DNA of 32,000 bases from positions 3,600,001-3,632,000 of the forward strand of contig NC_009925.1 in assembly GCF_000018105.1 (NCBI RefSeq). The letters are read 5' to 3'. A program made the translations under genes and the position numbers. Positions within the stretch are counted from its first letter, which is position 1. Every line of letters starts with the position of its first letter. Positions 3,224-17,845 of this stretch are shown piece by piece. Source of the stretch: Acaryochloris marina MBIC11017 (GTDB lineage: Bacteria > Cyanobacteriota > Cyanobacteriia > Thermosynechococcales > Thermosynechococcaceae). The notes beneath the pieces were generated by a model. That model saw nothing but the letters and a program-made list of their open reading frames with translations, had not been told where the DNA came from and made no database searches.

Positions 3224-3373
3224 TGGGGAATGACCCACGGATCACCTAGAGCCATCTTGCACAAAGCTCGGCCAAGGTTTGCCTACAACTATTGGATGTA
3301 CTCCATCAAGAGCGCTATGATTGCCCTCCTGCGATGTGATTGCCTGCTGGATGACCTCAAGATGGCAGCGGTT

Positions 3374-3736
3374 TTATTCCCCCACAATTGTGAGCTTTGC
3401 CCATTGTTGAGGGTCGTTGCTGGTAAATAGCTGTAGAGCATCACCTGCAAAATCTGGATGGGGTGTCCCCAGTTCATAGATGGAATTTTTGGTGGTTACA
3501 TACACCCGTCCTGCTTTGGTTAGGCATCCTTTGATGGGAGAAGATTTCAGCTTTTTCCCAGCCGGATACTTGGAGTGGTTAAAGATTTGCCCCTGAATAA
3601 CGACTTGATTGCCGATATCAACGCAAAGCCACGATTCGATAATCGGTAGGCTGAGAGATGCAGTATTGGATGCAGTTAACGTGGGTTGAGAATGTTCTAA
3701 ATAATAGTCCGTGATGTCATCAGCAATCATGATCAA
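3374..3736 (-). CDS. Hypothetical protein (120 aa)
   Basis: This is an open frame with an ATG start and no recognisable motif. It lies on the same strand as the sulfotransferase and 270 bp downstream of it. Confidence 0.4.
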   Translation of the reverse strand: MIMIADDITDYYLEHSQPTLTASNTASLSLPIIESWLCVDIGNQVVIQGQIFNHSKYPAGKKLKSSPIKGCLTKAGRVYVTTKNSIYELGTPHPDFAGDALQLFTSNDPQQWAKLTIVGE

Positions 3737-4006
3737 GCTTGGTAGGGTTGATGCTCAGTCAGGGGAGGAGTTCTGTGGGCAAAGAACAACACAGCAGTGA
3801 TGGGTTCAGATGTCTCTAGTCTAAGCAGAATCTCCCGCAGAAAGTACAGTAAGAATGCGGAAATCTATGCTGCCTGTCAGGCAGGATTGGAGTAGACTGA
3901 CTAGTTAAATATTCGGAGTGATTGCGATAGCATTAATAAAATTGTTGCTGTTATTCGGCGTAGCTGTACTGAAGCTAGTAACGTTGGCTTTGATAAGTCT
4001 TTTAAA

Positions 4007-4900
4007 TTAATTTTTGGTGTCGTAGAGAGTCTTCCAGTCTGGAAAAGTCATACCTAATAGATTGCTGAGATCTGCGGTTTGTTTGAGTTGAATGGGCCGG
4101 AGAAATTGAATTGCTTCCTGTAGATCTTCAGCATCCTTGTCTCGGTCCACTTCCCGAACTGCTAATTTGAGGCCAGAAGAGCGAATCTTTTTGGGGAGTA
4201 ACGAGGCCAGTTGGTTGAAAGGCCATGTGTATCGCAGACGAAATAAAGCACTCTTTTGGTAGAACTGCTTTGGCGTTGCATGAAATTTTTCCGAGAGATT
4301 CTCAGGCGCAAAGGAGGCATCGACCCCCAGCCACTCAAACGTCTTGGTCATGCAGGCTTCCGCATTATTACAAAGTTCTTCAAAGGTGAGAAACAGAAAT
4401 TGATCGGGCGAAAAATATTGAAAGTAATGGTTGAGCTGCTTGGGATAATTACTAACATCTTGATAAAGCGGATTATTCTGTACGGCTGTGAGTAGGCTTT
4501 GATTTTCGTTCCCTTGGCGAGTTTCATGCCAATAGTGACTCACCGTGCGCTCAATGGGGTCCCTCATGATGTAAATAAAGCGAGCTTGAGGGTTGAACTG
4601 GGCGATGCGTTCGGCCACATCTGTAATATGGGGCTCTTTGGCATACAGCGTACTCGATTCACCCAAAATTGTTGCCTCACCAGCACCCTCAAAGAGGCGG
4701 AGATATTTCTCTTCATTTCCCCACAGGCCGAGCTTTTTCATATTGGGCCAGTTCAACTGTTTGGGATGCACAAAATAGCAGGGCTCTTTGGGCTCACACA
4801 TGAAAATAGACGGGTGATTATTGAGATATTGGTGCAAGGATGAGGTGCCCGATTTCATCGCACCAATAATAAACAGATTCGGTTTTCTTAAATCGCTCAT
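4007..4900 (-). CDS. PAPS-dependent sulfotransferase
   Basis: The 5'-phosphosulfate-binding loop is IIGAMKSGTSSLHQYL (PKxGTT-type). The 3'-phosphate-binding motif is IMRDPIERTVSHYWH (RDPxxRxxS). The 297-aa size is typical of soluble sulfotransferases. Confidence 0.85.
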   Translation of the reverse strand: MSDLRKPNLFIIGAMKSGTSSLHQYLNNHPSIFMCEPKEPCYFVHPKQLNWPNMKKLGLWGNEEKYLRLFEGAGEATILGESSTLYAKEPHITDVAERIAQFNPQARFIYIMRDPIERTVSHYWHETRQGNENQSLLTAVQNNPLYQDVSNYPKQLNHYFQYFSPDQFLFLTFEELCNNAEACMTKTFEWLGVDASFAPENLSEKFHATPKQFYQKSALFRLRYTWPFNQLASLLPKKIRSSGLKLAVREVDRDKDAEDLQEAIQFLRPIQLKQTADLSNLLGMTFPDWKTLYDTKN

Positions 4901-4987
4901 GGTATTAATGTGGAGGCCGCCTTAGCTTCACTTCTTTCTACAGTAGCAGTTGGTTCTAGTCAATCTGCACGGTGAAAAATGGAAGGT

Positions 4988-6520
4988 TTATGACCGCAAG
5001 ATAAATCGAGCTTTTAGCTGTCTAGGCACAGAGACGCCAAAATAAAATTCTTGGTCATGGGGCTGATCGCCAAATTCGATCTCTACTTTTGCTAACAAGG
5101 TGGCTAAGGTTAAGCGCATAAAGAATTTGGCAAAATCTTGACCAATGCAAGCTCGCTCACCTCGACCAAACGGGAAAAAGTAATCGCTACCATAGTCATT
5201 TTCGGCCAACGTTTTGGTATCCCAGCGTTCTGGCTGAAAAGAGTCTGAATCGTGCCAGTGGGGTGAGAGGCGATGGAGAAACCAGTTATTGATAAAAATT
5301 TGGGTATTCGCGGGAATCTCGTGACCAGCTAGATGGGTAGCGCCAACCGTATTGCGCGTAAAAAAGGGCACGGGCGGCCAGAGTCGCAGGGACTCTCGCA
5401 ATACTTGTTCCACTGGGATACAGTTTTCCAGTCGTTCCAAGGTGAGGGGTTCTTTGAATAACCCGTCCAAATCGTGTTGAAGCGCTGATAGGGCTTGAGG
5501 ATGCTGAAATAGCAAATGAAGTGTAGAGGTAATACCGCTGGGCGCAGAAACCGCTCCGCCTGGATAGACACCAGCGCAGAAGTTTCGCATTTGTTCAGGG
5601 GTAAAGGCAGAGCCTCCTCGTTTCAGAACCCAATCCAAGAGCGAACCACCAGCAGGATCGGCTTGAGTAGTTTCTAGCACTTCGCTAAAGCGTTGAAACC
5701 ATTGGCGACTTGCTTCTTTATAATGCTTACCTTTGGGTTCTTCCGGAATCATCCAGTTGGCAATGGAGGATCGGTTCATGCGATCAGTGCCCGTTGCACA
5801 GAGGGTATTGAATTGTTCAAAGACATGATCGGGAAAGACTTGGCCTACGGTTGCCAGGGAAAAGCCGTCGAAGGCGAGCTTCTGAATGACCTCATAAGCG
5901 GGGAGCATTTCGGTCTCAGACTGTTTGACCAATGCCTCCGCCCGACTTTCGATAAAAACCTGCAAGGGCTGAATTTGAGTCTCCATCCACTCGCGGAAGT
6001 AGGTCATATTAAATGGATTATTTTTGACCAGATGCTGCCATTTCGATCCAGCAGTTTTGGCTACAAAAGGATGACTATCTGTCAGGATGGGGCGAAGGGC
6101 TTTGCGGGGGATATCTTTATAAAAATCAGCTTGGTTGGCCCGATGTTCATGGGAATGTGGGTTAGTCTGCTGCTGGGCCGTGAGCAGGACTTGTTGGATT
6201 AAATCGGGGTCGTTGAGAACTAAGGATGGCCGGGCCAAAATCCAGAATAAGGACAAGCCACCATATTGCTGCCCCTGTTCTCCTAGCACCTGCCAAATAG
6301 GTTTCCCTTGCTGCAGAGCCCAGACATTACCAATGGGGAATAGAGGCTGAGGGCCTGGAATCTGGCTGAATGCTTGGGTCTGTTTGCTAAAGATCCGCTG
6401 AAATAAGGTCTGGGAATAGGACTGTAACTTTGATTCTACCCACTGTCGGGGTTTGGCCTCTAGCTGTTTGAGGGTATTGTGCAGTCCTGCAGTGAGGGAT
6501 CCGGCTGATAGACCTGTCAT
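4988..6520 (-). CDS. Cytochrome P450 (510 aa)
   Basis: The canonical Cys-ligand loop is FPFGRGERACIGQDFA (Cys codon 5147-5149). The K-helix ExxR is ESLRLWPP, and the PERF-type motif is FQPERW. The I-helix motif reads GGAVSA (5543-5560) where (A/G)Gx(D/E)T(T/S) is expected. Confidence 0.9.
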   Translation of the reverse strand: MTGLSAGSLTAGLHNTLKQLEAKPRQWVESKLQSYSQTLFQRIFSKQTQAFSQIPGPQPLFPIGNVWALQQGKPIWQVLGEQGQQYGGLSLFWILARPSLVLNDPDLIQQVLLTAQQQTNPHSHEHRANQADFYKDIPRKALRPILTDSHPFVAKTAGSKWQHLVKNNPFNMTYFREWMETQIQPLQVFIESRAEALVKQSETEMLPAYEVIQKLAFDGFSLATVGQVFPDHVFEQFNTLCATGTDRMNRSSIANWMIPEEPKGKHYKEASRQWFQRFSEVLETTQADPAGGSLLDWVLKRGGSAFTPEQMRNFCAGVYPGGAVSAPSGITSTLHLLFQHPQALSALQHDLDGLFKEPLTLERLENCIPVEQVLRESLRLWPPVPFFTRNTVGATHLAGHEIPANTQIFINNWFLHRLSPHWHDSDSFQPERWDTKTLAENDYGSDYFFPFGRGERACIGQDFAKFFMRLTLATLLAKVEIEFGDQPHDQEFYFGVSVPRQLKARFILRS

Positions 6521-6627
6521 GGGAGTATATCCTCTTATGCTGATTATGCTGAATGGTTGCGGTTGCCACGAGGTAACCTGCCAGGGCCCATCGCGTTGGC
6601 AAGTGCATTTTTGATGGCGAGTAGACT

Positions 6628-8640
6628 TTAGATATTGATGCTCTGGGGAATGTTGGACGGCTGTAGGTAGCGGTAAGGGTAGGGGCGATGGCGGTTTCGT
6701 TCTGCGATCGCAGTTTCGATATCCAGTAAATTGGCTTGAAACCGATGCAGCGGAGCTTGCACTCGCTGATCAGAGAACCAAGACTTTTCGTATTGACCGA
6801 GTTGCGTATGGTAAATCTGCCCGAGCAAATACGTTAACTCCAGCTGATTTAAGGCCTGGTGTAAGGAGGGCAGTTGGTTGAGCCGATCCTGGGAAGACAT
6901 AGCTGTCGAGTTGGGAGCGGGCTGGTAGCCTGCTAATGGCATCCCTGGGGTATAGACCATGATGTCGCCCTGGGGAAAATTCACAGCGGCATGTTGGGCA
7001 CTCGCGGTAAAGATGATCAGCGTGAGGGCTTGAATCAAGTAGGCCTGGGTTCGCAATTGTCCATCCTCACCAAAATCTGGGACTCGGCCACCCTCTTCAG
7101 CCTGTAGCTCCTGCGCCCAAGCCTGAAGGGCCGCATCTGTTTGCACGGAGTCATCTGTTGGGTAGTACAAGCTCACATAATCAGTGACCCAAGTTTCGAT
7201 GGCCTGCCAAATCAGCAATGCATCGTCTCGATAGGGGTGGATGGGAAGCGCCTCTGCATTATCCAAACCCAGTTGCCGCAATTGTTGGGGCAGCATGGCC
7301 TGATTAAAGGAATAGCTTTGTACTCCCTTTACGGCTAAGACCCTGGCACAGTCGATAGTGGCAGCCAAGACCGTATCCACTCCACCTTCTGGCGCCATTA
7401 ACATGCTTTGAGCACCGTTGTTGATACTTAAGGTGCCTTCAAAGTGAGGCCGAAGCAGGACACTCACGGGATGAGACGGCAGTAGTTGGCGATGGGTGGC
7501 AATTACAAACGGGCTAATAAACAGATGGGTTCGACCCAAATGGGTGACGGCCTCATGGTAATTGCTGTCTGCAACTTGCACGCAGGTCTTCGCCATGTCC
7601 CAGGCCTGTTTTTGGTCTGGATTCTGATCCGTAGGCGGCGTCAGAATCGGTGTTTCAGGCCCTGGAGATTGGCGGCATTGAATAGCGATGGGCTGGAGAT
7701 TTCGGCAGGGGGCATCAGCTGAGGGAACGGCAAAAAGGGCGATGGGAGCCGAAATATATTTTTGCTGATCGGGGTAGTTACCATTGATCGCACCAGCCAA
7801 AATAGCATAATCGGCGATGTATAGACGGCCTTCGGTGATTGCTATTTGCAGAGAATCGTCTTCTCCCATTACGGTCTGATAATGCTGATTGGTAACTGGG
7901 AAATGAGAGCAGAGGATGTCTCCCGATAAATGGCGGACTTGTTGCAGCAAAACAGGATTAGGACCGGCTACTCGCAAGTAAGCAAAAAACTCATCTTCTT
8001 GAAAGTATTCGGCACACTCCGGTAACGGAATCGTTGCAAACTGCTGATTAAAGTCTGCTATTGAGGTAGGGCGATCTTGTCCACATTCATGGGCTAGATG
8101 TTCTTTTAAGTTCAAGTGCAGAATCCGTAATAGATCATGCTCTAAATGGGCGGCTAAACTGTGCAGCAAGCTTTCGGCATCAGAAAACGACAACCGTAAA
8201 CCGTTAAGCAAAGTCGTTGGCGCTGTTTTCAGCAGATGCCAGATGAGACGCCACCGCACCTCGGGGCGTTGTCTCAAGATATCCACCAAGGTTTTGCGAA
8301 TGAGGCGAGAAGCATGCTGCTCTGCTTCATGCTCATGGTGGTGATTATGGGCGCCAACAATGGCATTCGAGAGAATCTTGAACATGGTACGGATCAACTT
8401 TGACCACCAAGCCCTAGAGGGGAGTTCCTCTTTGGGTAAGCGATCCACCATGGCCACAGGGGCAATGTGACTATAGTTGTATTGATATTTGCGTCGAGCT
8501 GCTTTTAGCGCTGCGGGGATAGGCTCCGGCTGGGTCGGATTAGGACGAGTGGGGGCCAGAGTGGGTTGATGTTTGTCCTGTTGAATTTCTACAGGTGTGA
8601 TTTGGGTCGGCAGGCCAGTGAGGGAGTACTGATGCGTCAT
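6628..8640 (-). CDS. Lipoxygenase (670 aa, iron type)
   Basis: The His cluster is YHEAVTHLGRTHLFISPF (H-x4-H), and the second ligand block is SAQHAAVNFPQGD (His/Asn). The C-terminal ...PQSINI ends in Ile, the carboxylate iron ligand. LRVAGPNPVLL marks the start of the catalytic domain at about aa 220. Confidence 0.9.
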   Translation of the reverse strand: MTHQYSLTGLPTQITPVEIQQDKHQPTLAPTRPNPTQPEPIPAALKAARRKYQYNYSHIAPVAMVDRLPKEELPSRAWWSKLIRTMFKILSNAIVGAHNHHHEHEAEQHASRLIRKTLVDILRQRPEVRWRLIWHLLKTAPTTLLNGLRLSFSDAESLLHSLAAHLEHDLLRILHLNLKEHLAHECGQDRPTSIADFNQQFATIPLPECAEYFQEDEFFAYLRVAGPNPVLLQQVRHLSGDILCSHFPVTNQHYQTVMGEDDSLQIAITEGRLYIADYAILAGAINGNYPDQQKYISAPIALFAVPSADAPCRNLQPIAIQCRQSPGPETPILTPPTDQNPDQKQAWDMAKTCVQVADSNYHEAVTHLGRTHLFISPFVIATHRQLLPSHPVSVLLRPHFEGTLSINNGAQSMLMAPEGGVDTVLAATIDCARVLAVKGVQSYSFNQAMLPQQLRQLGLDNAEALPIHPYRDDALLIWQAIETWVTDYVSLYYPTDDSVQTDAALQAWAQELQAEEGGRVPDFGEDGQLRTQAYLIQALTLIIFTASAQHAAVNFPQGDIMVYTPGMPLAGYQPAPNSTAMSSQDRLNQLPSLHQALNQLELTYLLGQIYHTQLGQYEKSWFSDQRVQAPLHRFQANLLDIETAIAERNRHRPYPYRYLQPSNIPQSINI

Positions 8641-8998: not shown

Positions 8999-9321
8999 GA
9001 GAGATGCAAAGAATGGACTATTCAAATGTAAAATATCTAATTTTCCGTTTTTATCAAGATTTTTTGGGTTTGTGACGGCTCGATTAAAAAGCAGTCTTAG
9101 AAGGCTGATATAAATATTACAGTTACAACTATGCCTCATTAATTTGGTATCTATCCATCGTGGTCCTTGTTTGCTGAATAGTCTTGAAACCATAACAAAG
9201 AAATTTCTGAGATCTTGCAAGTTTTAGGTGCGTTTGGGGAACATCTAGATTGAAGCAATTGCTTATATTTTTCTTTTAAGAAAAGTTAGTTATTCTATTT
9301 CCTGGCTTGGAGCAATAATTG

Positions 9322-12300
9322 ATGTTGGGGACAATCGCGGACTGTCGTCTGGTTGAGCATCTCTATGAGAGTGAGAATTCTATTGTGTATCGGGGCCAAC
9401 GACAGGCTCAGCCACATCAGGTCATTCTGAAAGTCTTGAAAGAAGATTACCCAACCGCTTCAGAACTGACTCGGTATCGTCAAGAATATGAGATTACCCG
9501 CAGCCTCGAACTCGAAGGGGTGATCAAAGTGTTGGGGCTAGAACCCTATCAACGAACCCTAGCCATTATTTTGGAAGATGTTGAAGGGGTGTCCCTGAAG
9601 TCTTATTACCAGGGAAAGGTGGTGCCGTTGGTAGAGTTTCTACCCTTAGCCATCAGTATTACCGAAGTTTTAGGTCGGATTCATGGACATAATGTCATCC
9701 ATAAAGATCTGAATCCTAGCAACATCATTTTGAATCCAGATACGCATCAGTTACGGATCATTGATTTTGGCATTTCTACCCAACTCAGCCGGGAAACAAC
9801 CATCCTTAAAAACCCCCAAGTTCTCGAAGGGACGCTGCCCTATATTGCGCCTGAACAGACGGGGCGCATGAATCGCTCTCTGGATTATCGGACGGACTTT
9901 TATGCATTGGGGGTGATGTTTTACGAGCTACTGACGGGACAGTTACCTTTTACGGCTGAGGATCCGCTGAAATTAGTCCATTGTCATTTAGCGCAACAGC
10001 CCACCCCTCCCCATCAAGTCAATTTCGACATCCCTAGGGTGTTATCTGACTTGGTGATGATCTTGATGTCGAAAACCGCCGAAGAACGGTATCAGAGCGC
10101 ATTCGGAATCCAAGCTGATTTGGCGACCTGTTGGCAACAACTGAAGCAAACAGGGGAAATTCGAGCCTTTCCGCTTCGGACCCAGGACCATTCGGATAAG
10201 TTTCATATTCCGCAAAAGCTCTATGGGCGGTCCCAAGAAATTGCGGCCTTATTAACGGCCTTTGAGCGGGTCAATCACCCCCAAAATCCAACCAAAGGGA
10301 GTGAGATGATGCTGGTGGCGGGGTATTCCGGGATTGGCAAATCGGCGCTAGTCGCAGAAGTCCATAAACCGATTACCGAAAAACGAGGATATTTTATCTC
10401 GGGGAAATACGATCAATTTCAGCGAGATGTGCCTTACTCGGCTGTTATCAGTGCGTTTCAAGATTTAGTCAAGCAACTCCTGACTGAAAGTGAAACCCAA
10501 TTACTCCAATGGCGACGACAATTGCTGGCAGCTTTGGGACCGAATGGCCAAGTCATCATTGATGTCATCCCTGAAATTGAGTTGATTACAGGGGCTCAGC
10601 CTCCAGTGCCTGAATTGGGACCTGCAGAAGCTTTGAACCGATTTAACCTGGTATTTCAAAATTTTATTCGGGTGTTTTGTACCCCAGCCCATCCCTTAGT
10701 GGTGTTCTTAGATGATTTGCAATGGGCTGATTCCGCCAGCTTAAAGTTGATCAAGTTGATGATGACGGATCGGCAAATGCGATCTCTGTTGCTCATCGGT
10801 GCTTACCGTGATAACGAAGTCGATGCGACTCATCCCTTGATGACCTTGGTGAAGCAGCTCTGGCAAGAAAAAGTCAACATCAATACGATTACGCTACAGC
10901 CTCTCTCTCAGCTGCATTTGTGCCAGCTGATTGCGGATACCGTTCACCATAATTTAGAGACCACCCTCTCCTTAGCGGAGTTAGTCCTCAATAAAACGGA
11001 AGGAAATCCCTTTTTCGTCAATGAGTTTCTGAAGAATCTCTATGGGGAAGAGCTGTTGCAGTTTAATCCCCGCGCTCAACAGTGGGAATGGGATATGGCC
11101 CAAATTCAGTCTCAGGATCTCACGGATAACGTGATTGAACTGTTGATTAGCAAACTGAAAAAATTACCCCCTGCCACCCAAGATGTTTTGCGGTTGGCTG
11201 CTTGTGTGGGGGCTGAATTTGATCTGCAGACCCTGAGCCTAATTCGTCAGCAATCCCATGCCGAGGTATTTTCGGATTTGAAAGTCGCGATTCAGCTTGG
11301 GTTGATCTTTGCCCAGTCTGAGCTCAATGATGCATTAGTGATTACGGATTTTCGCTTTGGTCACGATCGAATTCAACAAGCCGCTTATGCCTTAATTGAT
11401 ACCGATAGCCGTTCTGCAGTGCACTTGAGAATTGGCCGTTTGTTATGGCATAACATGGAAACGGAACAACTGGCAGAGCGCATTTTTGAGGTGGTGGACC
11501 ATCTCAATCAGGCCCTCCCCCTGATTACGGATCTAGACGAACAAGATCAGGTCGCTCAACTTAACCTCAAAGCGGGCCAGAAAGCAAAATCAGCGACGGC
11601 TTACGGTGCTGCCGTCCGGTATCTGCAAACGGGATTGAGTTTGGTGGGAGAGACGGGATGGCAAAATGCCTATCCCTTAACCCTCCAGCTCCATCAAGAA
11701 GCAGTTGAAGCGGCGTATCTACACCAAGATTATCCCCAGCAAGAACAGCTAACGACCGTGGTGCTGCAGCAGGCCAGAACCGTGTTGGATATGGTGAAAG
11801 TCTACCGGGTCAAAATTTTAGCCCGTTCTGCTCAGAATCGCCATCTAGAGGCAACGGATATTGGCTTTGAGATTTTGGAGCGGCTAGGGGTCACCTTTGT
11901 AGACCCCACCCCTGAGAACTTGCAGCAAGAGTTGGAGCAAACCAAGCAGCTCTGTGCGGACCGCTCGATCCAAGATTTGATCCGTTTGTCTCCTATGACT
12001 GCAGAGGACAAACTAGCAGCCATGCAGATTCTCTCGGATATCTTGTCCTCTGGCTATCAAGCCTCTTTTGAACGCTTTATCCTCAGTAATCTGAAGCAAA
12101 TTCACTTATCTCTCACCTATGGCAATACGGCCCCTTCCGCGTTTGCCTACGACTGTTATGGCATTACCCTCTGTGGAGTCGTCGGAGATAGTGAAGCAGG
12201 TTATCAGTTTGGCCGGTTGGCCTTACAGGTGGTTGATAAGTTTCAGGCGAAAAAGACCAAGAGTCGGGTGGTTTTTGTGTTCAATGCGTTTGTACGCCAC

Positions 12301-14835
12301 TGGACAGAGCCCCTGAATTTGACGATTCCCGATTTGCATGAAGGGTATCAAATTGGTTTAGAAACCGGGGATTTAGAATATGCCAGCTATTCCCTCTGTT
12401 GGGAGGCAATGCATTCTTTATTAACGGGGGAGCAACTGTCAGATTTGGCGCTGCGAATGCTGGAGTTTCAGCAAGCCATTGCCGGTTTTCAACAGGCCGC
12501 TTGCCTCCTTTATCTCCAAATTTTTCAACAGGTCACTGCTCATTTAACTGAGCCCAACTTGGATCCGACCCGCTTGTCTGGGACGTACCTACAAGAACGA
12601 CAGGTCCTTGTGGACAGTGCGGATAATAAGCTAGCCTTAGCATTCTTTTATACCTTGAAAGCTCAGGTGGCTTACCTGTTGGAACAGCCTAAGACGGCTT
12701 TAGAGAGTACCAAACAAGCGGCGGCCTATGTGGACGGTATGACGGCTGCAGCGACGGTTGCCAGCCTCAATTTTTACGATTCTCTGGCCCGGTTAGCTCT
12801 CTATGATGGGCTACCCCCTGTAGAGCAAGAGCAGATGTTAGCAGTCGTCGCTACGAATCAAGATCAACTGCAGAAATGGGCTAACCATGCACCTGCCAAC
12901 CATCAGCATAAATATTGCTTAGTAGAAGCAGAGCGGTATCGCGTCTTGCGGCAGCTACCGCAGGCGGGGGAGGCTTATGATCGAGCGATTGCCCTGGCAC
13001 AATCCCACCATTACCCTAATGAAGCCGCCTTAGCTAATGAGCTGGCAGCGAAGTGTTTTCTGCAGCAAGAGCGAGATAACTTTGCTCGGGTGTATCTGAA
13101 TGAAGCTTATTACGGGTACTACTGCTGGGGGGCCACGGCTAAACTACGTCAATTAGAAGCCTCCTACCCTTACCTCCTGGCCCAGCAGGTAATCCATTCC
13201 CAACAGGGTACTATTCCCACTACACCTCTAGCCGCGGCAGCATCAACGAGTACCATTCGCACGGGGCAAGCTTTGGATCTGAATACGGTCTTGCAGGCTT
13301 CACAGGCGATTGCAGGGGAAATTGTCCTCGATAAGCTATTGATGACCCTGATCAAAATCCTTGTGCGTAATGCGGGGGCCCAAGTAGGGCATTTAATTTT
13401 AAATGTGGAAGGCAGCCTTGTTATTGAGGCATCGTTTAATTCTCAATCTGACCAGGGTCAGGTGCTGCAGTCTCAGCCTATTGCGGATCAGCTTCCCGAC
13501 AGTATCATCAACTACGTGCTTCGAACCCAGGAGAGTGTTGTCCTTCGACAGGCCACCCAAGACAGTAACTTTGGCTTGGATACTTATATTACGACCCATC
13601 AGCCCAAATCGATTCTTTGTGCGCCGCTTCTGAATCAAGGACAGTTGAGCGGGATTCTTTATTTAGAAAATAATCTGACGACGGGAGCCTTTACGGCGGA
13701 TCGCCTAGAAATTTTGCAGCTCCTGTCAGGACAGGCTGCGATCGCAATCGACAATGCCCGCCTGTATACCAACCTGGAAGAGAAGGTCGATGAACGGACT
13801 CAGGAACTCTCCCAAGCCTTAGAAGATCTACAGCTTGCTCAAGAAGGACTGATTCAGTCAGAAAAAATGGCGGCATTGGGACAATTGATCGCGGGCGTGG
13901 CCCACGAAATTAATACTCCTCTGGGGGCGATTCGGTCTTCGATTGAATATATTGCTAATTTTCTCGATCAGCATCTGACCACCCTGCCGCAATTTTTTCG
14001 AGAGTTACCCATCGAGCAAGCCGAGCAATTTCAATCCCTGTTGTTACGCGCCTTAACCCCTTCACCGACTCTGTCTGGTCGTGAACGACGCCATACCCGT
14101 AAGGCAATCGCCAAGCAACTCACCGAGCAGAAGATTTCATCGGCGGAGTCTTTAGCCAGTTTATTGCTGGATTTAGGGATTTGCGATGACATCCATGATC
14201 TCCTTCCTCTCCTGTCTGAACCCGGGAGTGAACCCTTATTAAAGATGGTGCGACAGTTTACGCGGGTGCGTGAAAGTACACGGGATATTGCGACCGCTAG
14301 CGATCGTTCTGCCAAAATTGTGTTTGCTCTGAAAACTTATGCCCGCTATGACCATAGCGGAGACAAGATTGAAGCCAACATCACGGACGGCATTGATGCG
14401 GTCTTAACCCTCTATCACAACCAAATCAAACATGGGGTAACGGTCCATCGCTCTTTTGCCGAGATTCCCCCCATTGCTTGCTATTTTGATGAACTGAATC
14501 AGGTGTGGACCAACCTCCTTCATAATGCCCTCCAGGCCATGGACCATCAAGGCACCCTTGATATTGATGTCAGTCAACAGGCAGATCAAGTCTGCGTCAA
14601 GATTACTGATAGCGGGCCTGGCGTTCCCCTGGAGTTAAAAGGGAAAATTTTTGAGCCCTTTTTCACCACTAAACCCCCTGGCGAAGGCAGTGGCTTAGGT
14701 CTTGACATTGTCCGCAAAATAATTGACAAGCATCAGGGTACTCTAAGCTTGGACTCCGTTCCTGGTCGCACAACCTTTACGGTGACCTTGCCCATGTCTG
14801 CCAATCTGACCCCTCAACCGACTCCAGCCCTATGA
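9322..14835 (+). CDS. Multi-domain sensor kinase: Ser/Thr protein kinase, AAA/STAND ATPase, TPR-like helical repeats, GAF and histidine kinase (HstK-type dual kinase)
   Basis: The kinase domain has VILKVLK (beta3 Lys), HKDLNPSN (9700-9708), IIDFGIS and YIAPEQ. The ATPase has Walker A VAGYSGIGKSALV and Walker B LVVFLDDLQWAD. The GAF region is ...ILCAPLLNQGQLSGILYLEN.... The DHp H-box is SEKMAALGQLIAGVAHEINTPLG (His codon 13903-13905), and the HATPase motifs are HNALQAM, DSGPGV and GEGSGLGLDIV. The ATG at 9322 immediately follows the TTG at 9319. Confidence 0.9.
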   Translation: MLGTIADCRLVEHLYESENSIVYRGQRQAQPHQVILKVLKEDYPTASELTRYRQEYEITRSLELEGVIKVLGLEPYQRTLAIILEDVEGVSLKSYYQGKVVPLVEFLPLAISITEVLGRIHGHNVIHKDLNPSNIILNPDTHQLRIIDFGISTQLSRETTILKNPQVLEGTLPYIAPEQTGRMNRSLDYRTDFYALGVMFYELLTGQLPFTAEDPLKLVHCHLAQQPTPPHQVNFDIPRVLSDLVMILMSKTAEERYQSAFGIQADLATCWQQLKQTGEIRAFPLRTQDHSDKFHIPQKLYGRSQEIAALLTAFERVNHPQNPTKGSEMMLVAGYSGIGKSALVAEVHKPITEKRGYFISGKYDQFQRDVPYSAVISAFQDLVKQLLTESETQLLQWRRQLLAALGPNGQVIIDVIPEIELITGAQPPVPELGPAEALNRFNLVFQNFIRVFCTPAHPLVVFLDDLQWADSASLKLIKLMMTDRQMRSLLLIGAYRDNEVDATHPLMTLVKQLWQEKVNINTITLQPLSQLHLCQLIADTVHHNLETTLSLAELVLNKTEGNPFFVNEFLKNLYGEELLQFNPRAQQWEWDMAQIQSQDLTDNVIELLISKLKKLPPATQDVLRLAACVGAEFDLQTLSLIRQQSHAEVFSDLKVAIQLGLIFAQSELNDALVITDFRFGHDRIQQAAYALIDTDSRSAVHLRIGRLLWHNMETEQLAERIFEVVDHLNQALPLITDLDEQDQVAQLNLKAGQKAKSATAYGAAVRYLQTGLSLVGETGWQNAYPLTLQLHQEAVEAAYLHQDYPQQEQLTTVVLQQARTVLDMVKVYRVKILARSAQNRHLEATDIGFEILERLGVTFVDPTPENLQQELEQTKQLCADRSIQDLIRLSPMTAEDKLAAMQILSDILSSGYQASFERFILSNLKQIHLSLTYGNTAPSAFAYDCYGITLCGVVGDSEAGYQFGRLALQVVDKFQAKKTKSRVVFVFNAFVRHWTEPLNLTIPDLHEGYQIGLETGDLEYASYSLCWEAMHSLLTGEQLSDLALRMLEFQQAIAGFQQAACLLYLQIFQQVTAHLTEPNLDPTRLSGTYLQERQVLVDSADNKLALAFFYTLKAQVAYLLEQPKTALESTKQAAAYVDGMTAAATVASLNFYDSLARLALYDGLPPVEQEQMLAVVATNQDQLQKWANHAPANHQHKYCLVEAERYRVLRQLPQAGEAYDRAIALAQSHHYPNEAALANELAAKCFLQQERDNFARVYLNEAYYGYYCWGATAKLRQLEASYPYLLAQQVIHSQQGTIPTTPLAAAASTSTIRTGQALDLNTVLQASQAIAGEIVLDKLLMTLIKILVRNAGAQVGHLILNVEGSLVIEASFNSQSDQGQVLQSQPIADQLPDSIINYVLRTQESVVLRQATQDSNFGLDTYITTHQPKSILCAPLLNQGQLSGILYLENNLTTGAFTADRLEILQLLSGQAAIAIDNARLYTNLEEKVDERTQELSQALEDLQLAQEGLIQSEKMAALGQLIAGVAHEINTPLGAIRSSIEYIANFLDQHLTTLPQFFRELPIEQAEQFQSLLLRALTPSPTLSGRERRHTRKAIAKQLTEQKISSAESLASLLLDLGICDDIHDLLPLLSEPGSEPLLKMVRQFTRVRESTRDIATASDRSAKIVFALKTYARYDHSGDKIEANITDGIDAVLTLYHNQIKHGVTVHRSFAEIPPIACYFDELNQVWTNLLHNALQAMDHQGTLDIDVSQQADQVCVKITDSGPGVPLELKGKIFEPFFTTKPPGEGSGLGLDIVRKIIDKHQGTLSLDSVPGRTTFTVTLPMSANLTPQPTPAL

Positions 14836-15227
14836 CTAAACTGGCTATTCTTTGTGTTGACGATGAAGTCATTATTCTCAACAGTCTCCTACGACAGCTG
14901 CAAACTGCTTTTGACGATCACTACATCTATGAAACGGCTGAAAATGCCAGCGAAGCCTTGGAGCTGATTGAAGAACTTCAGGAAGAAAATACAGATCTGT
15001 TAGTGATTGTGTCGGATTGGTTAATGCCTGGGGCAAAAGGAGATGAATTCCTGATTCAAGTCCACCAGCAGTTCCCAGGGGTCGTCAAGATTTTGCTGAC
15101 TGGTCAAGCTGATGAAGCAGCAGTAGAACGAGCGCAGTCCCAAGCCAATCTGTTTAATTGTTTACGCAAACCCTGGAATGAAAGTGATCTGATCCAATGT
15201 ATTCAATCAGCCTTAGGAACAGTGTAA
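14832..15227 (+). CDS. Stand-alone response-regulator receiver (CheY-like)
   Basis: Receiver motifs are CVDDE, the phospho-acceptor region LLVIVSDWLMPG, LLTGQAD and LRKPW. The ATG overlaps the upstream TGA (ATGA at 14832-14835), which suggests translational coupling. Confidence 0.9.
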   Translation: MTKLAILCVDDEVIILNSLLRQLQTAFDDHYIYETAENASEALELIEELQEENTDLLVIVSDWLMPGAKGDEFLIQVHQQFPGVVKILLTGQADEAAVERAQSQANLFNCLRKPWNESDLIQCIQSALGTV

Positions 15228-15242
15228 AGACTAATCAGGACG

Positions 15243-16517
15243 ATGCCTAAACCCATAATTGTTTGTGTGGATGATGAAATCGCAGTCCTAGATAGCCTCA
15301 GACGTGAGCTATCTGAAGTGTTTGAAGATACCTGCGAAATAGAAACTGCTATGGGGGGCAAGGATGCCATTGCCCTGGTCCATGACCTGATCGAAGATGA
15401 ATGCGATTTATCGGTCATCATTGCTGATTATCTGATGCCAGACATCAAAGGAGACGCAGTCTTACAACAAGTCCATCAGCTCTCTCCCCAAACTTTGACC
15501 ATTATGTTGACGGGGCAAGCGAATGTTGATGGTATTTCCAATGCCATCAATACGGCCCAGCTGTATCACTACATTGCCAAACCCTGGCAACCTGAAGCGT
15601 TACAGTTAACGGTGCGAGAGGCTCTCAATCGCTATCAACTCTCTAAAAAAATTAAAGACTATCAACAAACCCTCGAACGTAAAGTTGAAGAGCGTACCCA
15701 GGAATTATCCGAAACGTTGCATACCCTGCAAACCACCCAATCAGAACTGATTCAGGCGGAAAAAATGGCTGCCCTAGGCCAGTTAGTGGCGGGCGTAGCC
15801 CATGAAATTAATACCCCTGTGGGCAATGCCCTGTTAGCCGCCTCGGTATTGAATAATGAAACCAGTTCTTTAACTCAAGCCTTTGAGCAAGGAGCGTTAA
15901 AACGATCGGCCTTAGTGGGTTATTTGCAGACTGCTCAAGAGAGTAGTGATCTGATCTTGCAAAATCTGCATGGGGCGGCGGCCCTCATTCAAAACTTCAA
16001 GCAAGTTGCGGTGGATCAAACCAGTCATGAGCAACGAGAGTTTCAGATCATCCCGTATATTGAGAGTGTATTGACCAATTTGGAACCGAAATTAAAACGG
16101 ACTCGCCATACGGTGACGGTTTCAGGGGATGCTGCTCTAAAAACCACTAGTTATCCAGGAGCACTGTCACAAGTTGTGACTAATTTTGTCATGAATTCCC
16201 TTATGCATGCCTACCAACCTGGAGAGGCAGGGCAATTAAAATTTGAAGTGACTCAACAACAAGATCGGATTATTCTCGAATATACCGATGATGGTTGTGG
16301 CATTCCAGCAGAACATCAGCCTAAGATTTATGAACCTTTTTTTACCACGGGTCGAGATCGGGGCGGCAGTGGTTTAGGTCTGCATATTGTTCACAATCTG
16401 GTCACCCAGTCCCTTGGAGGAACCTTGTCTTGCCAGAGTGAGGTTTCCGTAGGAACTCAGTTTATGCTGCAGTTACCCTTGACCTTAAGGAAGGGGGAGG
16501 CTCATGCCCGAGGATAA
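15243..16517 (+). CDS. Hybrid receiver-histidine kinase (N-terminal REC, then DHp and HATPase)
   Basis: The REC has CVDDE, [17 protein letters not shown] and IAKPW. The H-box is [23 protein letters not shown]. The ATPase motifs are NSLMHA, DDGCGIP and [11 protein letters not shown]. Confidence 0.9.
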   Translation: [424 protein letters not shown]

Positions 16518-17766
16518 ATCCTTGCTTTCTGCAGGAACTCTAGAAGCCGATGATGAACTCCAGTTTTTGGAAGAGTTAGCCTGCCATTCCCAGAGGGAGG
16601 TGATTCCAGGAGGATGGAAAGTCATTGTAGTGGACGATGAAGAACAGGTTCATGAGGTGACGCGTCTCGCCCTGAAAAACTTCAAATTTGCTGATAAGCC
16701 CCTGGAAATTATTTCGGCTTATTCCAGTGAAGAAGCTCAGCAGTTATTGAATCAAAACCCAGATACAGCGGTGTTGCTGTTAGATGTGGTGATGGAGACG
16801 GATGAAGCTGGCCTAGAGCTGGTCAAGCATATCCGTGATCATTTACACAACATCTTTGTGCGGATTATTTTACGCACTGGTCAGCCGGGTATCGCTCCCG
16901 AAAAATCGGTGATTGAAGGGTATGACATTAATGACTACAAAACTAAAACCGAACTCACCCAACAAAAACTTTTTTCCACGTTAATTACGGCTATTCGATC
17001 GTATCGAGATTTACTGACTGTTGAAGAGAGCCGTCAACAGATTGCGTATTTAAATCAACAGTTAGAAGATGCCAAACTCAGTTTGGAGAATAAGGTTAAA
17101 GAACGCACCCAAGCGCTGCAGCAGCAAACCTTAGCCTTAGCAGCTAAAAACAAGCAGCTAGAAGAAGAGATTCAGGCCAAGCTCTATGCCCAGCAGGCTT
17201 TAGAAGCGACCAATAAGAAGTTGGATGAAGCCAATAAGCAGCTGTCTCTGATTGCGAATCATGATGCCCTCACGGGGTTGGCGAACCGCCGTCGTTTTGA
17301 TGAGTATTTACAACAAATTTGGAAGCAAACTCAGCGGGAACAACAGCCCTTAAGCCTTTTAATTTGCGATATTGATTTTTTCAAGCAGTATAACGATACC
17401 TATGGTCACCTAGAGGGAGATATTTGCCTCCGAACGGTGGCCCAAAAGATTCACCAAACCATTGTGCGTCCTTTGGATTTAGTGGCCCGCTTTGGAGGGG
17501 AAGAATTTGCGATTGTGTTGCCCAATACCGATTTAGAGGGAGGGCAAGTGGTGGCGGAGCGCCTGAGAATGATCATCCAGAAGTCTCAACTTCCCCATCG
17601 TGGATCTTCTGTGAGCGAATTTGTGACCGTTAGCATTGGGGCCGCTACGGTGCGATCACATCCCCATACCTCCGTATCGAGCTTAATCAGCCGAGCCGAT
17701 CAGGCCCTCTATCAAGCGAAACAATCTGGACGAGACCAGGTGGTTGCTCTATCGATAACGGAGTAG
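16504..17766 (+). CDS. Response regulator with coiled-coil linker and GGDEF diguanylate cyclase domain
   Basis: The REC has VVDDEE, LLLDVVMETDEAG, ILRTGQPG and DYKTK. A long Q/E/K-rich helix follows. The GGDEF domain has DALTGLANRR, an I-site RPLD and an active-site RFGGEEFAI. It overlaps the upstream gene by 14 nt. Confidence 0.9.
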   Translation: MPEDKSLLSAGTLEADDELQFLEELACHSQREVIPGGWKVIVVDDEEQVHEVTRLALKNFKFADKPLEIISAYSSEEAQQLLNQNPDTAVLLLDVVMETDEAGLELVKHIRDHLHNIFVRIILRTGQPGIAPEKSVIEGYDINDYKTKTELTQQKLFSTLITAIRSYRDLLTVEESRQQIAYLNQQLEDAKLSLENKVKERTQALQQQTLALAAKNKQLEEEIQAKLYAQQALEATNKKLDEANKQLSLIANHDALTGLANRRRFDEYLQQIWKQTQREQQPLSLLICDIDFFKQYNDTYGHLEGDICLRTVAQKIHQTIVRPLDLVARFGGEEFAIVLPNTDLEGGQVVAERLRMIIQKSQLPHRGSSVSEFVTVSIGAATVRSHPHTSVSSLISRADQALYQAKQSGRDQVVALSITE

Positions 17767-17845
17767 GTTTTTCAGCAGGAGAAGAGTGCGATTTACAGAC
17801 AGCCGGGGAACACTGGATGTAATTCGCGAGATCAGCCGAACGGCC

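What the first reader, a model, noticed from the sequence alone, without database searches (positions are those of the whole stretch)
4988..6520. P450 next to the lipoxygenase lacks the I-helix acid-alcohol pair and has no redox partner nearby: a possible hydroperoxide-rearranging P450 that is not CYP74
A gapless by-eye alignment places FTPEQMRNFCAGVYPGGAVSAPSGITSTLHLLFQHP against the generic I-helix pattern ...(A/G)G-x-(D/E)-T-(T/S)...HP. This puts GGAVSA (aa 321-326, nt 5543-5560) at the oxygen-activation motif. The conserved acidic residue is Val and the Thr is Ser. Established P450 biochemistry says this pair serves proton delivery during O2 activation. It is dispensable or degenerate in P450s that use a pre-formed peroxide (CYP74 allene oxide synthase and hydroperoxide lyase, prostacyclin synthase, thromboxane synthase). 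No ferredoxin, flavodoxin or reductase gene is present anywhere in the 32 kb. The Cys loop FPFGRGERACIG is fully canonical, whereas CYP74 enzymes have an atypical, extended loop. If this enzyme acts on hydroperoxides, it would therefore represent an independent recruitment of a P450 to that chemistry.
Basis: partly seen in the sequence, partly recalled or inferred. Interest (0 to 1): 0.65.

Follow-up and report, generated by a model that had tools for sequence, protein, structure and literature searches.

The report
Lipoxygenase-partnered bacterial P450 lacking oxygen-activation residues
The gene encodes a cytochrome P450 from an unstudied bacterial family that almost always sits beside, and is sometimes fused to, a lipoxygenase and has lost a residue P450s normally need to activate oxygen, so it most likely reworks the lipoxygenase's fatty-acid hydroperoxide directly, as plant and fungal enzymes of separate origin do.

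Summary
The ORF at 4988-6520 (-) is a complete P450. Its I-helix reads GGAVSA where its nearest outgroup P450s read AGHETT, so the acid is Val and the Thr is Ser. The Cys loop is canonical, and no redox-partner gene lies in the 32 kb.

This is a family trait. None of 92 family domains carries Asp/Glu at the acid position, against 92 of 111 generic P450 domains.

The P450 is tied to lipoxygenase (LOX). In 57 of 80 related genomic loci, a LOX gene lies within 500 bp, nearly always on the same strand. These loci span Cyanobacteria, Planctomycetota, Leptospiraceae, Myxococcota and Alphaproteobacteria.

Natural fusions exist:
- P450-PLAT-LOX.
- P450-LOX.

By sequence and fold the family is nearest CYP3A4, CYP102 and CYP97, not CYP74. 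I found no paper describing it.

Best reading (confidence about 0.6): a redox-partner-independent enzyme that isomerises or dehydrates the LOX's fatty-acid hydroperoxide. This would be a separate recruitment of a P450 to CYP74-like chemistry. The reaction itself is untested.

A large Ser/Thr-kinase/AAA_16 protein is a third recurrent neighbour. This suggests an oxylipin signalling module.

The parts
4988..6520 (-). Cytochrome P450 gene (510 aa), founding member here of a LOX-associated P450 family
   Evidence: PF00067 at E 3e-45. AlphaFold2 model with pLDDT 90.4 and pTM 0.89. The identical sequence is in NCBI, without a name in the look-up. Other members of its 90% cluster are named only 'cytochrome P450' from Acaryochloris.
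5543..5560 (-). I-helix oxygen-activation position: GGAVSA (aa 321-326). The acid is Val324 and the Thr is Ser325.
   Evidence: Translation. Aligned opposite AGHETS of CYP97A3 and AGHETT-type motifs of 14 outgroup P450s. Ser325 is invariant in 38 of 38 aligned family members. None of 92 family domains has Asp/Glu at the acid position.
5141..5176 (-). Canonical haem-thiolate Cys loop FPFGRGERACIG (Cys458)
   Evidence: Translation. P450, G452, R453, G454, R456 and C458 are invariant in the family. There is no 9-residue CYP74-type insertion.
5384..5395 (-). EXXR motif (ESLR, Glu376/Arg379) of the ERR triad
   Evidence: Translation. Invariant in alignments A1 and A2.
6628..8640 (-). Lipoxygenase gene (670 aa), 107 bp upstream of the P450 on the same strand. 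It is the presumed source of the P450's substrate.
   Evidence: PF00305 at E 2e-65. P. aeruginosa LOX structures 4G32 and 4RPE at E 1e-114 over residues 53-670; the protein ends in ...SINI. A LOX lies within 500 bp of the P450 in 57 of 80 related loci.
9319..14835 (+). 1838-aa Ser/Thr kinase + AAA_16 + GAF + His-kinase protein, divergently transcribed from the LOX-P450 pair. It is a recurrent third neighbour of this P450 family.
   Evidence: Pfam domains. Homologues lie within 10 kb of the P450 in 25 of 80 loci from several phyla, including loci with no LOX.
14832..18892 (+). Signalling genes downstream of the kinase: a response regulator, a response-regulator/His-kinase hybrid and two response-regulator/GGDEF proteins. 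Possibly the output of the module.
   Evidence: Pfam. In the Acaryochloridaceae locus L004, ORFs of matching size and order (131, 421 and 413 aa after a homologous 1828-aa kinase) sit directly upstream of the P450 on the same strand. Their domains were not scanned.
4007..4900 (-). Sulfotransferase gene (297 aa), 87 bp downstream of the P450 on the same strand. It is not found in any of the 80 related loci, so it is not a conserved part of the module.
   Evidence: PF13469 and PF00685. No tblastn hit in any of the 80 related loci, including the 81-82% identical Acaryochloris loci L001 and L007.

Best explanation
The gene encodes a soluble or peripherally bound haem-thiolate P450. It belongs to a discrete, previously uncharacterised bacterial family whose dedicated partner is a lipoxygenase.

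Proposed mechanism, in steps:
1. The LOX encoded 107 bp upstream oxygenates a polyunsaturated fatty acid to a hydroperoxide. This step is inferred from established LOX chemistry.
2. The P450 binds that hydroperoxide at its ferric haem and cleaves the O-O bond directly. It needs no O2, NAD(P)H or ferredoxin.
3. The resulting alkoxyl or epoxyallylic intermediate collapses to an allene oxide, epoxy alcohol, divinyl ether or chain-cleavage product. The sequence does not tell which.

Because the peroxide is pre-formed, the proton-relay acid of the I helix is not needed, and it has been replaced by a hydrophobic residue (Val, Phe, Tyr or Ile). The invariant Ser at the Thr position, next to the Gly-Gly, is proposed to position or hydrogen-bond the peroxide.

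What is shown: the P450 fold and motifs, the family-wide loss of the acid, the conserved LOX adjacency, and the natural fusions. What is inferred: the substrate, the independence from a redox partner, and the type of product.
For: 1. **Intact P450 with the acid lost.** The EXXR motif, PERW motif and Cys loop are intact and the structure model is confident. The I helix reads GG-x-(V/F/Y/I)-S where the nearest outgroup P450s, including CYP102-like reductase fusions, read AG-H-(E/D)-T-T.
2. **Family-wide trait.** A family profile was searched against 1.84 billion representative proteins. None of 92 domains scoring 230 bits or more has Asp/Glu at the acid position (FS 48, YS 11, IS 7 and others). 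Among lower-scoring generic P450 domains, 92 of 111 do.
3. **Synteny.** LOX lies within 500 bp of the P450 in 57 of 80 genome loci. It is upstream on the same strand in 46 and downstream on the same strand in 10. Gaps mostly run from -9 to about 140 bp. The loci come from Cyanobacteria, Planctomycetota, Leptospiraceae, Myxococcota (including M. xanthus), an alphaproteobacterium and others.
4. **Other dioxygenase neighbours.** A further 3 loci without LOX carry a RoxA-like di-haem protein instead, and 2 loci carry both.
5. **Rosetta-stone fusions.**
   - P0181 is a family P450 (311 bits, motif FFGGALS) + PLAT + LOX in one 1200-aa protein.
   - P0209 is a P450 + LOX fusion on a bacterial contig that also has a stand-alone LOX.
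   - P0182 is a P450 fused to a domain homologous to the catalase-related allene oxide synthase of coral AOS-LOX (PDB 1U5U, E 4e-19). A LOX gene overlaps its stop codon.
6. **No reductase link.** Among the single-domain family-level hits in the top 150, the four with extra length whose added regions were examined are joined to LOX (two), a catalase-related AOS-like domain and cNMP-binding domains. The tandem-P450 hits checked by Pfam showed no reductase domains. Clustering of neighbours found no conserved ferredoxin or reductase in the 80 loci.
7. **Fatty-acid context elsewhere.** A fatty-acid desaturase follows the P450 directly in 9 Myxococcus-type loci. Locus L087 carries a FadL-like transporter, a desaturase and an OYE/OPR-family reductase.
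8. **Precedent.** Self-sufficient peroxide-isomerising P450s (CYP74, CYP5A1, CYP8A1, fungal DOX-CYP) depart from the acid-alcohol pair in varied ways. The residue at the distal axial position can be Asn, Ile or Thr (PMC13049297; PMC10813956).
Against: - There are no biochemical data for any member of the family.
- The fold and Cys loop are those of ordinary monooxygenases (CYP3A4, CYP102, CYP97).
- Ser can stand in for Thr. From my own knowledge, a few genuine monooxygenases work without the acid.
- About a fifth of the loci with full flanks have no LOX or RoxA-like gene within 10 kb. Some keep only the kinase neighbour.
- The P450-cAOS-like fusion could mean that the catalase-related domain consumes the hydroperoxide there, and the P450 does a different step.
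- In M. xanthus, hepoxilin and trioxilin formation was explained by a LOX plus an epoxide hydrolase, with no P450 invoked. The LOX-adjacent P450 was not tested in that work (PMC5760719).
- The family lacks the I-helix Asn used by plant AOS and PGIS.
Confidence: 0.6

Rival explanations
1. It is a conventional O2- and NAD(P)H-dependent monooxygenase. It hydroxylates or epoxidises a fatty acid or the reduced LOX product (a hydroxy fatty acid), using a ferredoxin and reductase encoded elsewhere in the genome. The missing acid would be compensated by Ser325, ordered water or a substrate hydroxyl or carboxyl group.
For: The Cys loop is the canonical FxxGxRxCxG, the ERR triad is intact, and the nearest structures are monooxygenases, including the fatty-acid hydroxylase CYP102A1. 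Ser is retained at the Thr position in most members. Bacterial P450 genes commonly lack an adjacent redox partner (own knowledge). The LOX adjacency fits any step downstream of LOX.
Against: None of 92 family domains keeps the acid, whereas 83% of generic domains in the same search do. The family fusions examined are to LOX or a catalase-related domain, none to a reductase. No ferredoxin or reductase is conserved in the 80 loci.
Confidence: 0.22
2. It is a peroxygenase-type P450. It uses the LOX-derived hydroperoxide (or H2O2) as the oxygen donor to epoxidise or hydroxylate a second molecule, rather than rearranging the hydroperoxide itself.
For: The same features favour any peroxide-driven chemistry: loss of the acid, LOX linkage and no reductase. 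A sister subgroup carries H-P, R-N or K-N at these positions. This resembles the Arg-Pro of CYP152 peroxygenases (own knowledge for CYP152; motifs), and one such member, P0162, is also next to a LOX.
Against: The window protein has V-S, not R-P. The fusions to LOX point to channelling of a single substrate. There is no evidence for a second substrate.
Confidence: 0.1
3. The LOX adjacency reflects co-regulation or a role unrelated to LOX products. Examples are a haem-based sensor or accessory of the neighbouring kinase pathway, or an enzyme acting before the LOX.
For: Several loci keep the P450 next to the large kinase with no LOX within 10 kb: L003-L005, the Schlesneria loci, and L004, where the P450 follows the kinase and three further ORFs on the same strand. 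One family member is fused to cNMP-binding domains.
Against: Translationally coupled LOX-P450 pairs and covalent P450-LOX fusions are hard to explain without shared chemistry. All catalytic P450 motifs are under strong conservation.
Confidence: 0.08

Closest known systems
CYP74 clan (plant, algal, metazoan and Methylobacterium allene oxide synthase, hydroperoxide lyase, divinyl ether synthase, epoxyalcohol synthase)
   Same: Both are P450s that work directly downstream of a lipoxygenase. In both, the I-helix oxygen-activation motif is degenerate. The proposed use of the fatty-acid hydroperoxide as both substrate and oxygen source, without O2 or a redox partner, is the same (PMC10813956).
   Different: This protein has no 9-residue insertion in the haem-binding loop; its loop is the canonical FPFGRGERACIG. 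It has no I-helix Asn of the FN-TwGG type. No CYP74 structure appears among the 50 best Foldseek matches, which are CYP3A4, CYP102A1 and CYP97 at 18-21% identity. By these criteria it is an independent lineage.
Catalase-related allene oxide synthase-lipoxygenase fusion proteins (coral Plexaura; also Acaryochloris marina itself)
   Same: Both show the same logic: a haem enzyme that consumes the hydroperoxide is physically or genetically coupled to the LOX that makes it. In the fusions found here (P0181, P0209) the P450 is N-terminal and the LOX C-terminal, as in cAOS-LOX (PDB 3DY5 hit). One family member (P0182) is itself fused to a cAOS-like domain.
   Different: The haem protein here is a thiolate-ligated P450, not a tyrosinate-ligated catalase fold. 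In the window the two enzymes are separate genes.
Fungal dioxygenase-P450 fusion enzymes (linoleate diol synthases, 8/9-AOS, 10R-EAS)
   Same: Both are self-sufficient P450 domains coupled to the fatty-acid dioxygenase that supplies the hydroperoxide. In the fungal enzymes the distal axial residue can be Thr or non-polar, so a Ser or hydrophobic pair is compatible with this class (PMC13049297).
   Different: The dioxygenase partner here is a non-haem-iron LOX (or a RoxA-like di-haem protein), not a COX-like haem peroxidase. None of the long proteins among the top 150 profile hits that I examined was a DOX-CYP fusion.
Thromboxane synthase CYP5A1 and prostacyclin synthase CYP8A1
   Same: Both rearrange peroxides without a redox partner. 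CYP5A1 keeps a canonical Cys loop and belongs to the CYP3 clan (own knowledge), and CYP3A4 is the best structural match here. This shows that ordinary-looking P450 scaffolds can be recruited to such chemistry.
   Different: Those enzymes act on an endoperoxide from cyclooxygenase. TXS keeps the Glu and loses the Thr (IAGYEI), while PGIS has an Asn. This family loses the acid and keeps a Ser.
CYP102A1 (P450 BM3), CYP3A4 and CYP97A3/C1
   Same: These are the closest solved structures and sequences (TM-score 0.7-0.83; phmmer E 1e-13 to 3e-23). CYP102A1 is a fatty-acid-binding P450.
   Different: These are O2-activating monooxygenases with an intact acid-alcohol pair and dedicated reductases. The residues corresponding to Glu267 and Thr268 of BM3 (numbering from own knowledge) are Val324 and Ser325 here.

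Membership tests
Cytochrome P450 superfamily (PF00067) | Haem-thiolate Cys loop FxxGxRxCxG | tested here: met
   FPFGRGERACIG at aa 449-460. Cys458 is invariant in the family.
Cytochrome P450 superfamily (PF00067) | EXXR and PERF-type motifs (ERR triad) and the P450 fold | tested here: met
   ESLR at 376-379 and PERW at 430-433 are conserved. Pfam E 3e-45. The AlphaFold2 model (pLDDT 90.4) matches P450 structures at TM 0.7-0.83.
Conventional O2-activating P450 monooxygenase | I-helix acid-alcohol pair (A/G)Gx(D/E)T(T/S) | tested here: not met
   The motif is GGAVSA: the acid is Val and the Thr is Ser. None of 92 family domains has the acid, against 92 of 111 generic domains.
Conventional O2-activating P450 monooxygenase | Dependence on a ferredoxin/flavodoxin/reductase electron supply | not testable with these tools
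   No partner gene is in the window or conserved in the 80 loci. Partners can be encoded elsewhere, so an assay is needed.
CYP74 clan | Nine-residue insertion in the haem-binding loop (non-canonical Cys loop) | tested here: not met
   The loop has the canonical length and sequence. The feature is described in PMC10813956.
CYP74 clan | Closest sequence or structure relatives are CYP74 members; I-helix groove of the FN(T/S)wGG type with a catalytic Asn | tested here: not met
   The top 50 Foldseek hits and top 60 phmmer PDB hits are CYP3A, CYP102, CYP97, CYP46, CYP17 and similar, with no CYP74. There is no Asn in the groove.
CYP74 clan | Turnover of fatty-acid hydroperoxides without O2 or a redox partner | not testable with these tools
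   This needs an enzyme assay.
Functional class: self-sufficient peroxide-isomerising P450 partnered with a fatty-acid dioxygenase | Genetic or physical coupling to the dioxygenase that makes the peroxide | tested here: met
   LOX lies within 500 bp in 57 of 80 loci. LOX or a RoxA-like gene is present in 62 of 80. P450-LOX fusions P0181 and P0209 exist.
Functional class: self-sufficient peroxide-isomerising P450 partnered with a fatty-acid dioxygenase | Departure from the acid-alcohol pair at the distal haem face | tested here: met
   The class has no single replacement motif, so this is permissive evidence, not diagnostic.
CYP152 peroxygenases | Arg-Pro in place of the acid-alcohol pair, with Arg binding the fatty-acid carboxylate (own knowledge) | tested here: not met
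   The window protein has Val-Ser. Only a sister subgroup has H-P, R-N or K-N.

The most novel reading that the evidence does not exclude
The LOX, the acid-less P450 and the divergently encoded 1838-aa Ser/Thr-kinase/AAA_16/GAF/His-kinase protein, with its response-regulator and GGDEF relay, form an ancient bacterial oxylipin signalling module shared across phyla. In this reading the LOX-P450 pair makes a specific oxylipin, by a P450 lineage that acquired CYP74-like, redox-partner-free chemistry independently. That oxylipin is sensed by, or produced under the control of, the kinase, which feeds into c-di-GMP output. This would be a prokaryotic counterpart of jasmonate or eicosanoid signalling.
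Probability: 0.25. Interest if true: 0.85.

Novelty: new variant of a known kind. Interest (0 to 1): 0.68.

Why it matters
Bacterial lipoxygenases have been cloned and used as biocatalysts, including those of Myxococcus xanthus and Cyanothece. Their physiological role and downstream enzymes remain largely unknown. A 2026 review of bacterial LOXs does not mention a P450 partner.

This analysis identifies a dedicated P450 partner present in at least five bacterial lineages. It names a model organism, M. xanthus, in which the LOXs were characterised but the adjacent P450 was not tested. It also supplies natural fusion proteins as ready-made test constructs.

If the P450 proves to be a cofactor-free hydroperoxide isomerase, dehydratase or lyase, three things follow:
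- It would be another independent origin of this chemistry on the P450 scaffold, alongside CYP74, CYP5A/8A and the fungal DOX-CYPs.
- It would open a route to the real bacterial oxylipins.
- It would give a soluble, redox-partner-free catalyst for making allene oxides, epoxy alcohols or short-chain aldehydes.

The recurrent kinase neighbour raises the possibility of oxylipin signalling in bacteria.

Tried and rejected
- **Out-of-register alignment.** Rejected. Two independent alignments give the same columns. The CYP46A1 alignment has a one-residue gap but also yields no acid.
- **CYP74-clan membership.** Rejected on the Cys-loop length, the I-helix groove and the nearest structures.
- **Sulfotransferase (4007-4900) as part of the conserved module.** Rejected. 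It has no homologue in any of the 80 loci, including the 81-82% identical Acaryochloris loci.
- **A conserved redox partner in related loci.** ORF clustering found none. The high-GC myxobacterial loci produced many spurious shadow-ORF clusters that had to be filtered out.
- **Long hits as reductase or DOX fusions.** Most long proteins (about 1000-1600 aa) in the profile search turned out to be tandem canonical P450 domains with D/E-T motifs and per-domain scores of 60-165 bits. They are not family members.
- **Literature.** Seven full-text searches found no description of a LOX-adjacent bacterial P450 or a P450-LOX fusion. One search was too unspecific to be informative.
- **Promoter and terminator scan of 3200-9400.** It gave no more sites than shuffled sequence.
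- **NCBIfam.** It has no model for this family; hits were far below the cut-offs.
Full report
**1. What is in the window**

The minus strand carries three closely spaced genes:
- a lipoxygenase (LOX; 6628-8640, 670 aa, PF00305 E 2e-65);
- a cytochrome P450 107 bp downstream (4988-6520, 510 aa, PF00067 E 3e-45);
- a sulfotransferase a further 87 bp downstream (4007-4900).

The LOX is a full-length bacterial enzyme of the Pseudomonas aeruginosa type. It matches 4G32 and 4RPE at E 1e-114 over residues 53-670 and ends in ...SINI.

Divergently upstream of the LOX lies an 1838-aa protein with Pkinase, AAA_16, GAF, HisKA and HATPase_c domains. It is followed by a response regulator, a response-regulator/His-kinase hybrid and two response-regulator/GGDEF proteins.

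The exact P450 sequence is in NCBI, without a name in the look-up. Other members of its 90% cluster are named only "cytochrome P450" from Acaryochloris. The longest contig carrying the exact sequence is 6.50 Mb. The window is therefore from an Acaryochloris chromosome.

**2. Check of the observation**

Translation confirms GGAVSA at 5543-5560 (-), FPFGRGERACIG at 5141-5176 (-) and ESLR at 5384-5395 (-).

- phmmer against CYP97A3 puts GGAVSA opposite AGHETS.
- A MAFFT alignment with 14 of the nearest non-family P450s, including CYP102-like P450-reductase fusions, puts AGHETT, AGYETV or AGHDTT in the same columns.

Val324 thus replaces the conserved acid and Ser325 replaces the Thr.

The AlphaFold2 model built from a 38-sequence family alignment is confident (pLDDT 90.4, pTM 0.89). 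It places these residues in the centre of the I helix, which spans 308-339.

No ferredoxin, flavodoxin or reductase domain was found in the Pfam scans of the window's candidate genes. No ferredoxin-type Cys motif occurs in any stop-to-stop segment of 45 aa or more.

**3. The motif is a family trait**

A database search found a discrete family:
- 79-91% identity in Acaryochloris;
- 45-55% in other marine cyanobacteria;
- 30-38% in planctomycetes and others;
- then an abrupt drop to about 25% identity and 90 bits or less for generic P450s.

In the 38-sequence alignment Ser325 is invariant and Gly321 and Gly322 are at least 90% conserved. The acid position is always hydrophobic. The Cys loop, EXXR and PERW motifs are invariant.

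The same G-G-x-(V/F/Y/I)-S pattern appears in the P450s of nearly all of the 80 genome loci retrieved.

A profile search of 1.84 billion representative proteins separates the family cleanly at about 230 bits per domain:
- Above that score, none of 92 domains has Asp/Glu at the acid position. The pairs are FS 48, YS 11, IS 7 and VS 2. A sister subgroup has H-P, R-N or K-N.
- Below that score, 92 of 111 generic P450 domains have Asp/Glu there.

The loss is therefore a derived, strongly conserved feature of this lineage.

**4. The lipoxygenase link is conserved across phyla**

The 80 loci were searched by tblastn with the window LOX and a second cyanobacterial LOX.
- A LOX gene lies within 500 bp of the P450 in 57 of 80 loci.
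- It is upstream on the same strand in 46, downstream on the same strand in 10, and divergent in one.
- Gaps mostly run from -9 to about 140 bp, so many pairs are probably translationally coupled.

The loci come from:
- Cyanobacteria (Acaryochloris, Anabaena, Cyanothece);
- Planctomycetota (Gemmatales, Ca. Kuenenia and others);
- Leptospiraceae;
- about forty Myxococcota, including Myxococcus xanthus, Archangium, Corallococcus and Cystobacter;
- the alphaproteobacterium Qipengyuania.

Three further loci without a LOX carry a RoxA-like di-haem cytochrome c instead, and two carry both (Zavarzinella, Gemmata; PF21419; the only PDB match is rubber oxygenase RoxA, 4B2N, E 3e-12).

Counting only the 65 loci with at least 3 kb on both sides, 52 have a LOX or RoxA-like gene.

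A member of the H-P sister subgroup is also directly downstream of a LOX.

From my own knowledge, LOX genes are rare in bacteria. This degree of adjacency cannot be chance.

**5. Natural fusions**

Among the long proteins recovered by the profile search, most are tandem canonical P450s and are irrelevant. Four are true family members joined to other domains.
- **P0181** (1200 aa, one uninterrupted ORF on a metagenome contig). It is a family P450 (residues 44-496, 311 bits, I-helix FFGGALS) + PLAT + lipoxygenase (755-1183, ending SSIAI).
- **P0209** (935 aa). It is a P450 + LOX fusion on a bacterial-type contig that also has a stand-alone LOX two genes upstream.
- **P0182** (1019 aa, on a 4.3-Mb bacterial contig). 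It is a P450 (LPGGMFS), then a stretch that looks hydrophobic by eye and was not analysed, then a domain homologous to the catalase-related allene oxide synthase of the coral AOS-LOX protein (1U5U, E 4e-19). Its stop codon overlaps the start of a LOX gene. The neighbourhood also holds a Pkinase/AAA_16 gene, an Old-Yellow-Enzyme/OPR-family reductase, a fatty-acid desaturase and a FadL-like porin.
- **P0188**. It carries two cNMP-binding domains.

None of these fusions, and none of the tandem-P450 hits checked by Pfam, carries a reductase domain.

Unbiased clustering of neighbouring ORFs found no conserved ferredoxin or reductase in the 80 loci. It did find clade-specific fatty-acid genes:
- a fatty-acid desaturase whose start overlaps the P450 stop codon in 9 Myxococcus-type loci;
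- an enoyl-CoA hydratase in 12 loci.

**6. How it most likely works**

The shown facts are:
- an intact haem-thiolate P450;
- family-wide replacement of the proton-relay acid by a hydrophobic residue;
- an invariant Ser beside a Gly-Gly;
- obligatory-looking coupling to a hydroperoxide-forming dioxygenase.

The most economical inference is that the P450 takes the LOX's fatty-acid hydroperoxide as substrate. It would cleave the O-O bond at ferric haem without O2 activation or external electrons. CYP74 enzymes, thromboxane and prostacyclin synthases and the fungal DOX-linked P450s all work this way (PMC10813956; PMC13049297).

The same reviews show that this class has no single replacement motif. 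The distal axial residue is Asn in plant AOS and PGIS, Ile in TXS, and Thr or non-polar in fungal AOSs. A Val-Ser pair is therefore compatible with the class.

The sequence cannot tell which product is formed (allene oxide, epoxy alcohol, divinyl ether or hemiacetal/aldehyde). I put about 0.6 on this mechanism.

The main rival, at about 0.22, is an ordinary monooxygenase acting on a LOX product with a redox partner encoded elsewhere. Three points favour it: the scaffold is of the CYP3A4/CYP102/CYP97 type, Ser can replace Thr, and the cAOS-like fusion hints that another haem domain may consume the hydroperoxide in at least one organism.

**7. Comparison with what is known**

The enzyme would work like a CYP74, but it is not one:
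- It lacks the nine-residue insertion in the haem loop.
- It lacks the Asn-containing I-helix groove.
- Its closest structures are CYP3A4, CYP102A1 and CYP97 at 18-21% identity.

It is also unrelated to the catalase-type AOS that Acaryochloris marina is known to fuse to a different LOX (cited).

NCBIfam has no model for the family.

Seven full-text searches found no description of a LOX-adjacent bacterial P450 or a P450-LOX fusion:
- A 2026 review of bacterial LOXs does not mention a P450 partner.
- A 2024 review of octadecanoids contains no mention of bacterial P450s or of Myxococcus.
- A direct term search returned zero papers.

The M. xanthus study that characterised LOXs MXAN_1744 and MXAN_1745 tested two other P450s as "thromboxane synthases" and found them inactive. 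It did not test the P450 next to the LOX genes. Subscription-only literature could not be searched, so earlier work cannot be fully excluded.

**8. Verdict**

I classify this as a new variant of a known kind. It is an independent, bacterial lineage of dioxygenase-partnered, probably self-sufficient P450s.

Interest is moderately high (0.68). The family is widespread, sits next to enzymes already in biotechnological use, is immediately testable, and comes with a recurrent kinase neighbour that hints at bacterial oxylipin signalling. The score is held down because the chemistry is still inferred and the concept has clear precedents in plants, fungi and animals.

Noticed in passing
window 9319-14835 (+), with 14832-18892 (+): A Pkinase + AAA_16 + GAF + HisKA/HATPase_c protein is a recurrent neighbour of this P450 family. 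It is followed here by a response regulator, a response-regulator/His-kinase hybrid and two response-regulator/GGDEF genes. Homologues lie within 10 kb of the P450 in 25 of 80 loci: Acaryochloridaceae, Synechococcus MAGs, Zavarzinella/Gemmata, Schlesneria, Ca. Kuenenia, Leptospirales, and also L087. This holds even where no LOX is present. In L004 a homologous kinase and three ORFs of matching size and order (domains not scanned) sit directly upstream of the P450 on the same strand.
   Followed up: partly
L009/L082 11385-13067, L011 11367-13019, L012, L014, L019: In planctomycete loci the P450 is flanked by a RoxA-like di-haem cytochrome c (PF21419; the only PDB relative is rubber oxygenase 4B2N). 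It occurs either instead of LOX or in addition to it, which suggests an alternative dioxygenase partner.
   Followed up: partly
window 4007-4900 (-): A sulfotransferase gene lies 87 bp downstream of the P450 on the same strand, with no terminator-like site between them. It has no counterpart in any of the 80 related loci, including the closest Acaryochloris ones. It could modify the pathway product, for example by sulfating a hydroxy-oxylipin.
   Followed up: partly
window 2357-3223 (+): An MmyB-like HTH regulator (PF17765 ligand-binding domain plus HTH_3) lies about 1.8 kb from the P450 end of the cluster. From my own knowledge, a solved member of this family had a fatty acid bound, so it is a candidate lipid-responsive regulator of the locus.
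   Followed up: no
L087 8001-11060 (protein P0182) and flanks: [quoted passage not shown] It sits in a locus with a LOX, an Old-Yellow-Enzyme/OPR-family reductase, a fatty-acid desaturase, a FadL-like porin and a Pkinase/AAA_16 gene. This looks like a complete oxylipin pathway on a 4.3-Mb bacterial contig.
   Followed up: partly
L065 11419-12261 (M. xanthus) and 8 other Myxococcus-type loci: A membrane fatty-acid desaturase (PF00487, E 1.5e-25) starts at the stop codon of the P450, giving a LOX-LOX-P450-desaturase arrangement. The published M. xanthus LOX work did not examine the P450 or the desaturase.
   Followed up: partly
proteins P0162, P0163, P0166, P0172, P0177, P0184, P0185 and others; L088 6001-7407: A sister subgroup of the family has H-P, R-N or K-N in place of the acid-alcohol pair (for example AGAHPVAT and AGTRNVA). 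This resembles the Arg-Pro of CYP152 peroxygenases. One member (P0162) is also directly downstream of a LOX, which is split into two ORFs.
   Followed up: partly
protein P0188 (1239 aa, from the profile search): A family-level P450 domain (263 bits, I-helix TRGVLQ) is fused to two cyclic-nucleotide-binding domains. This is another hint of a signalling connection.
   Followed up: no
window 6370-6520 (-), aa 1-50 of the P450: The Acaryochloris proteins carry an extra N-terminal stretch of about 50 residues, modelled as one long helix (residues 8-43). It precedes the Pro-rich IPGPxP hinge and is absent from most other family members. It may be a membrane-association or docking element.
   Followed up: no
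window 3374-3736 (-): A 120-aa ORF downstream of the sulfotransferase on the same strand has no Pfam or NCBIfam match. Its status as a gene is unknown.
   Followed up: no
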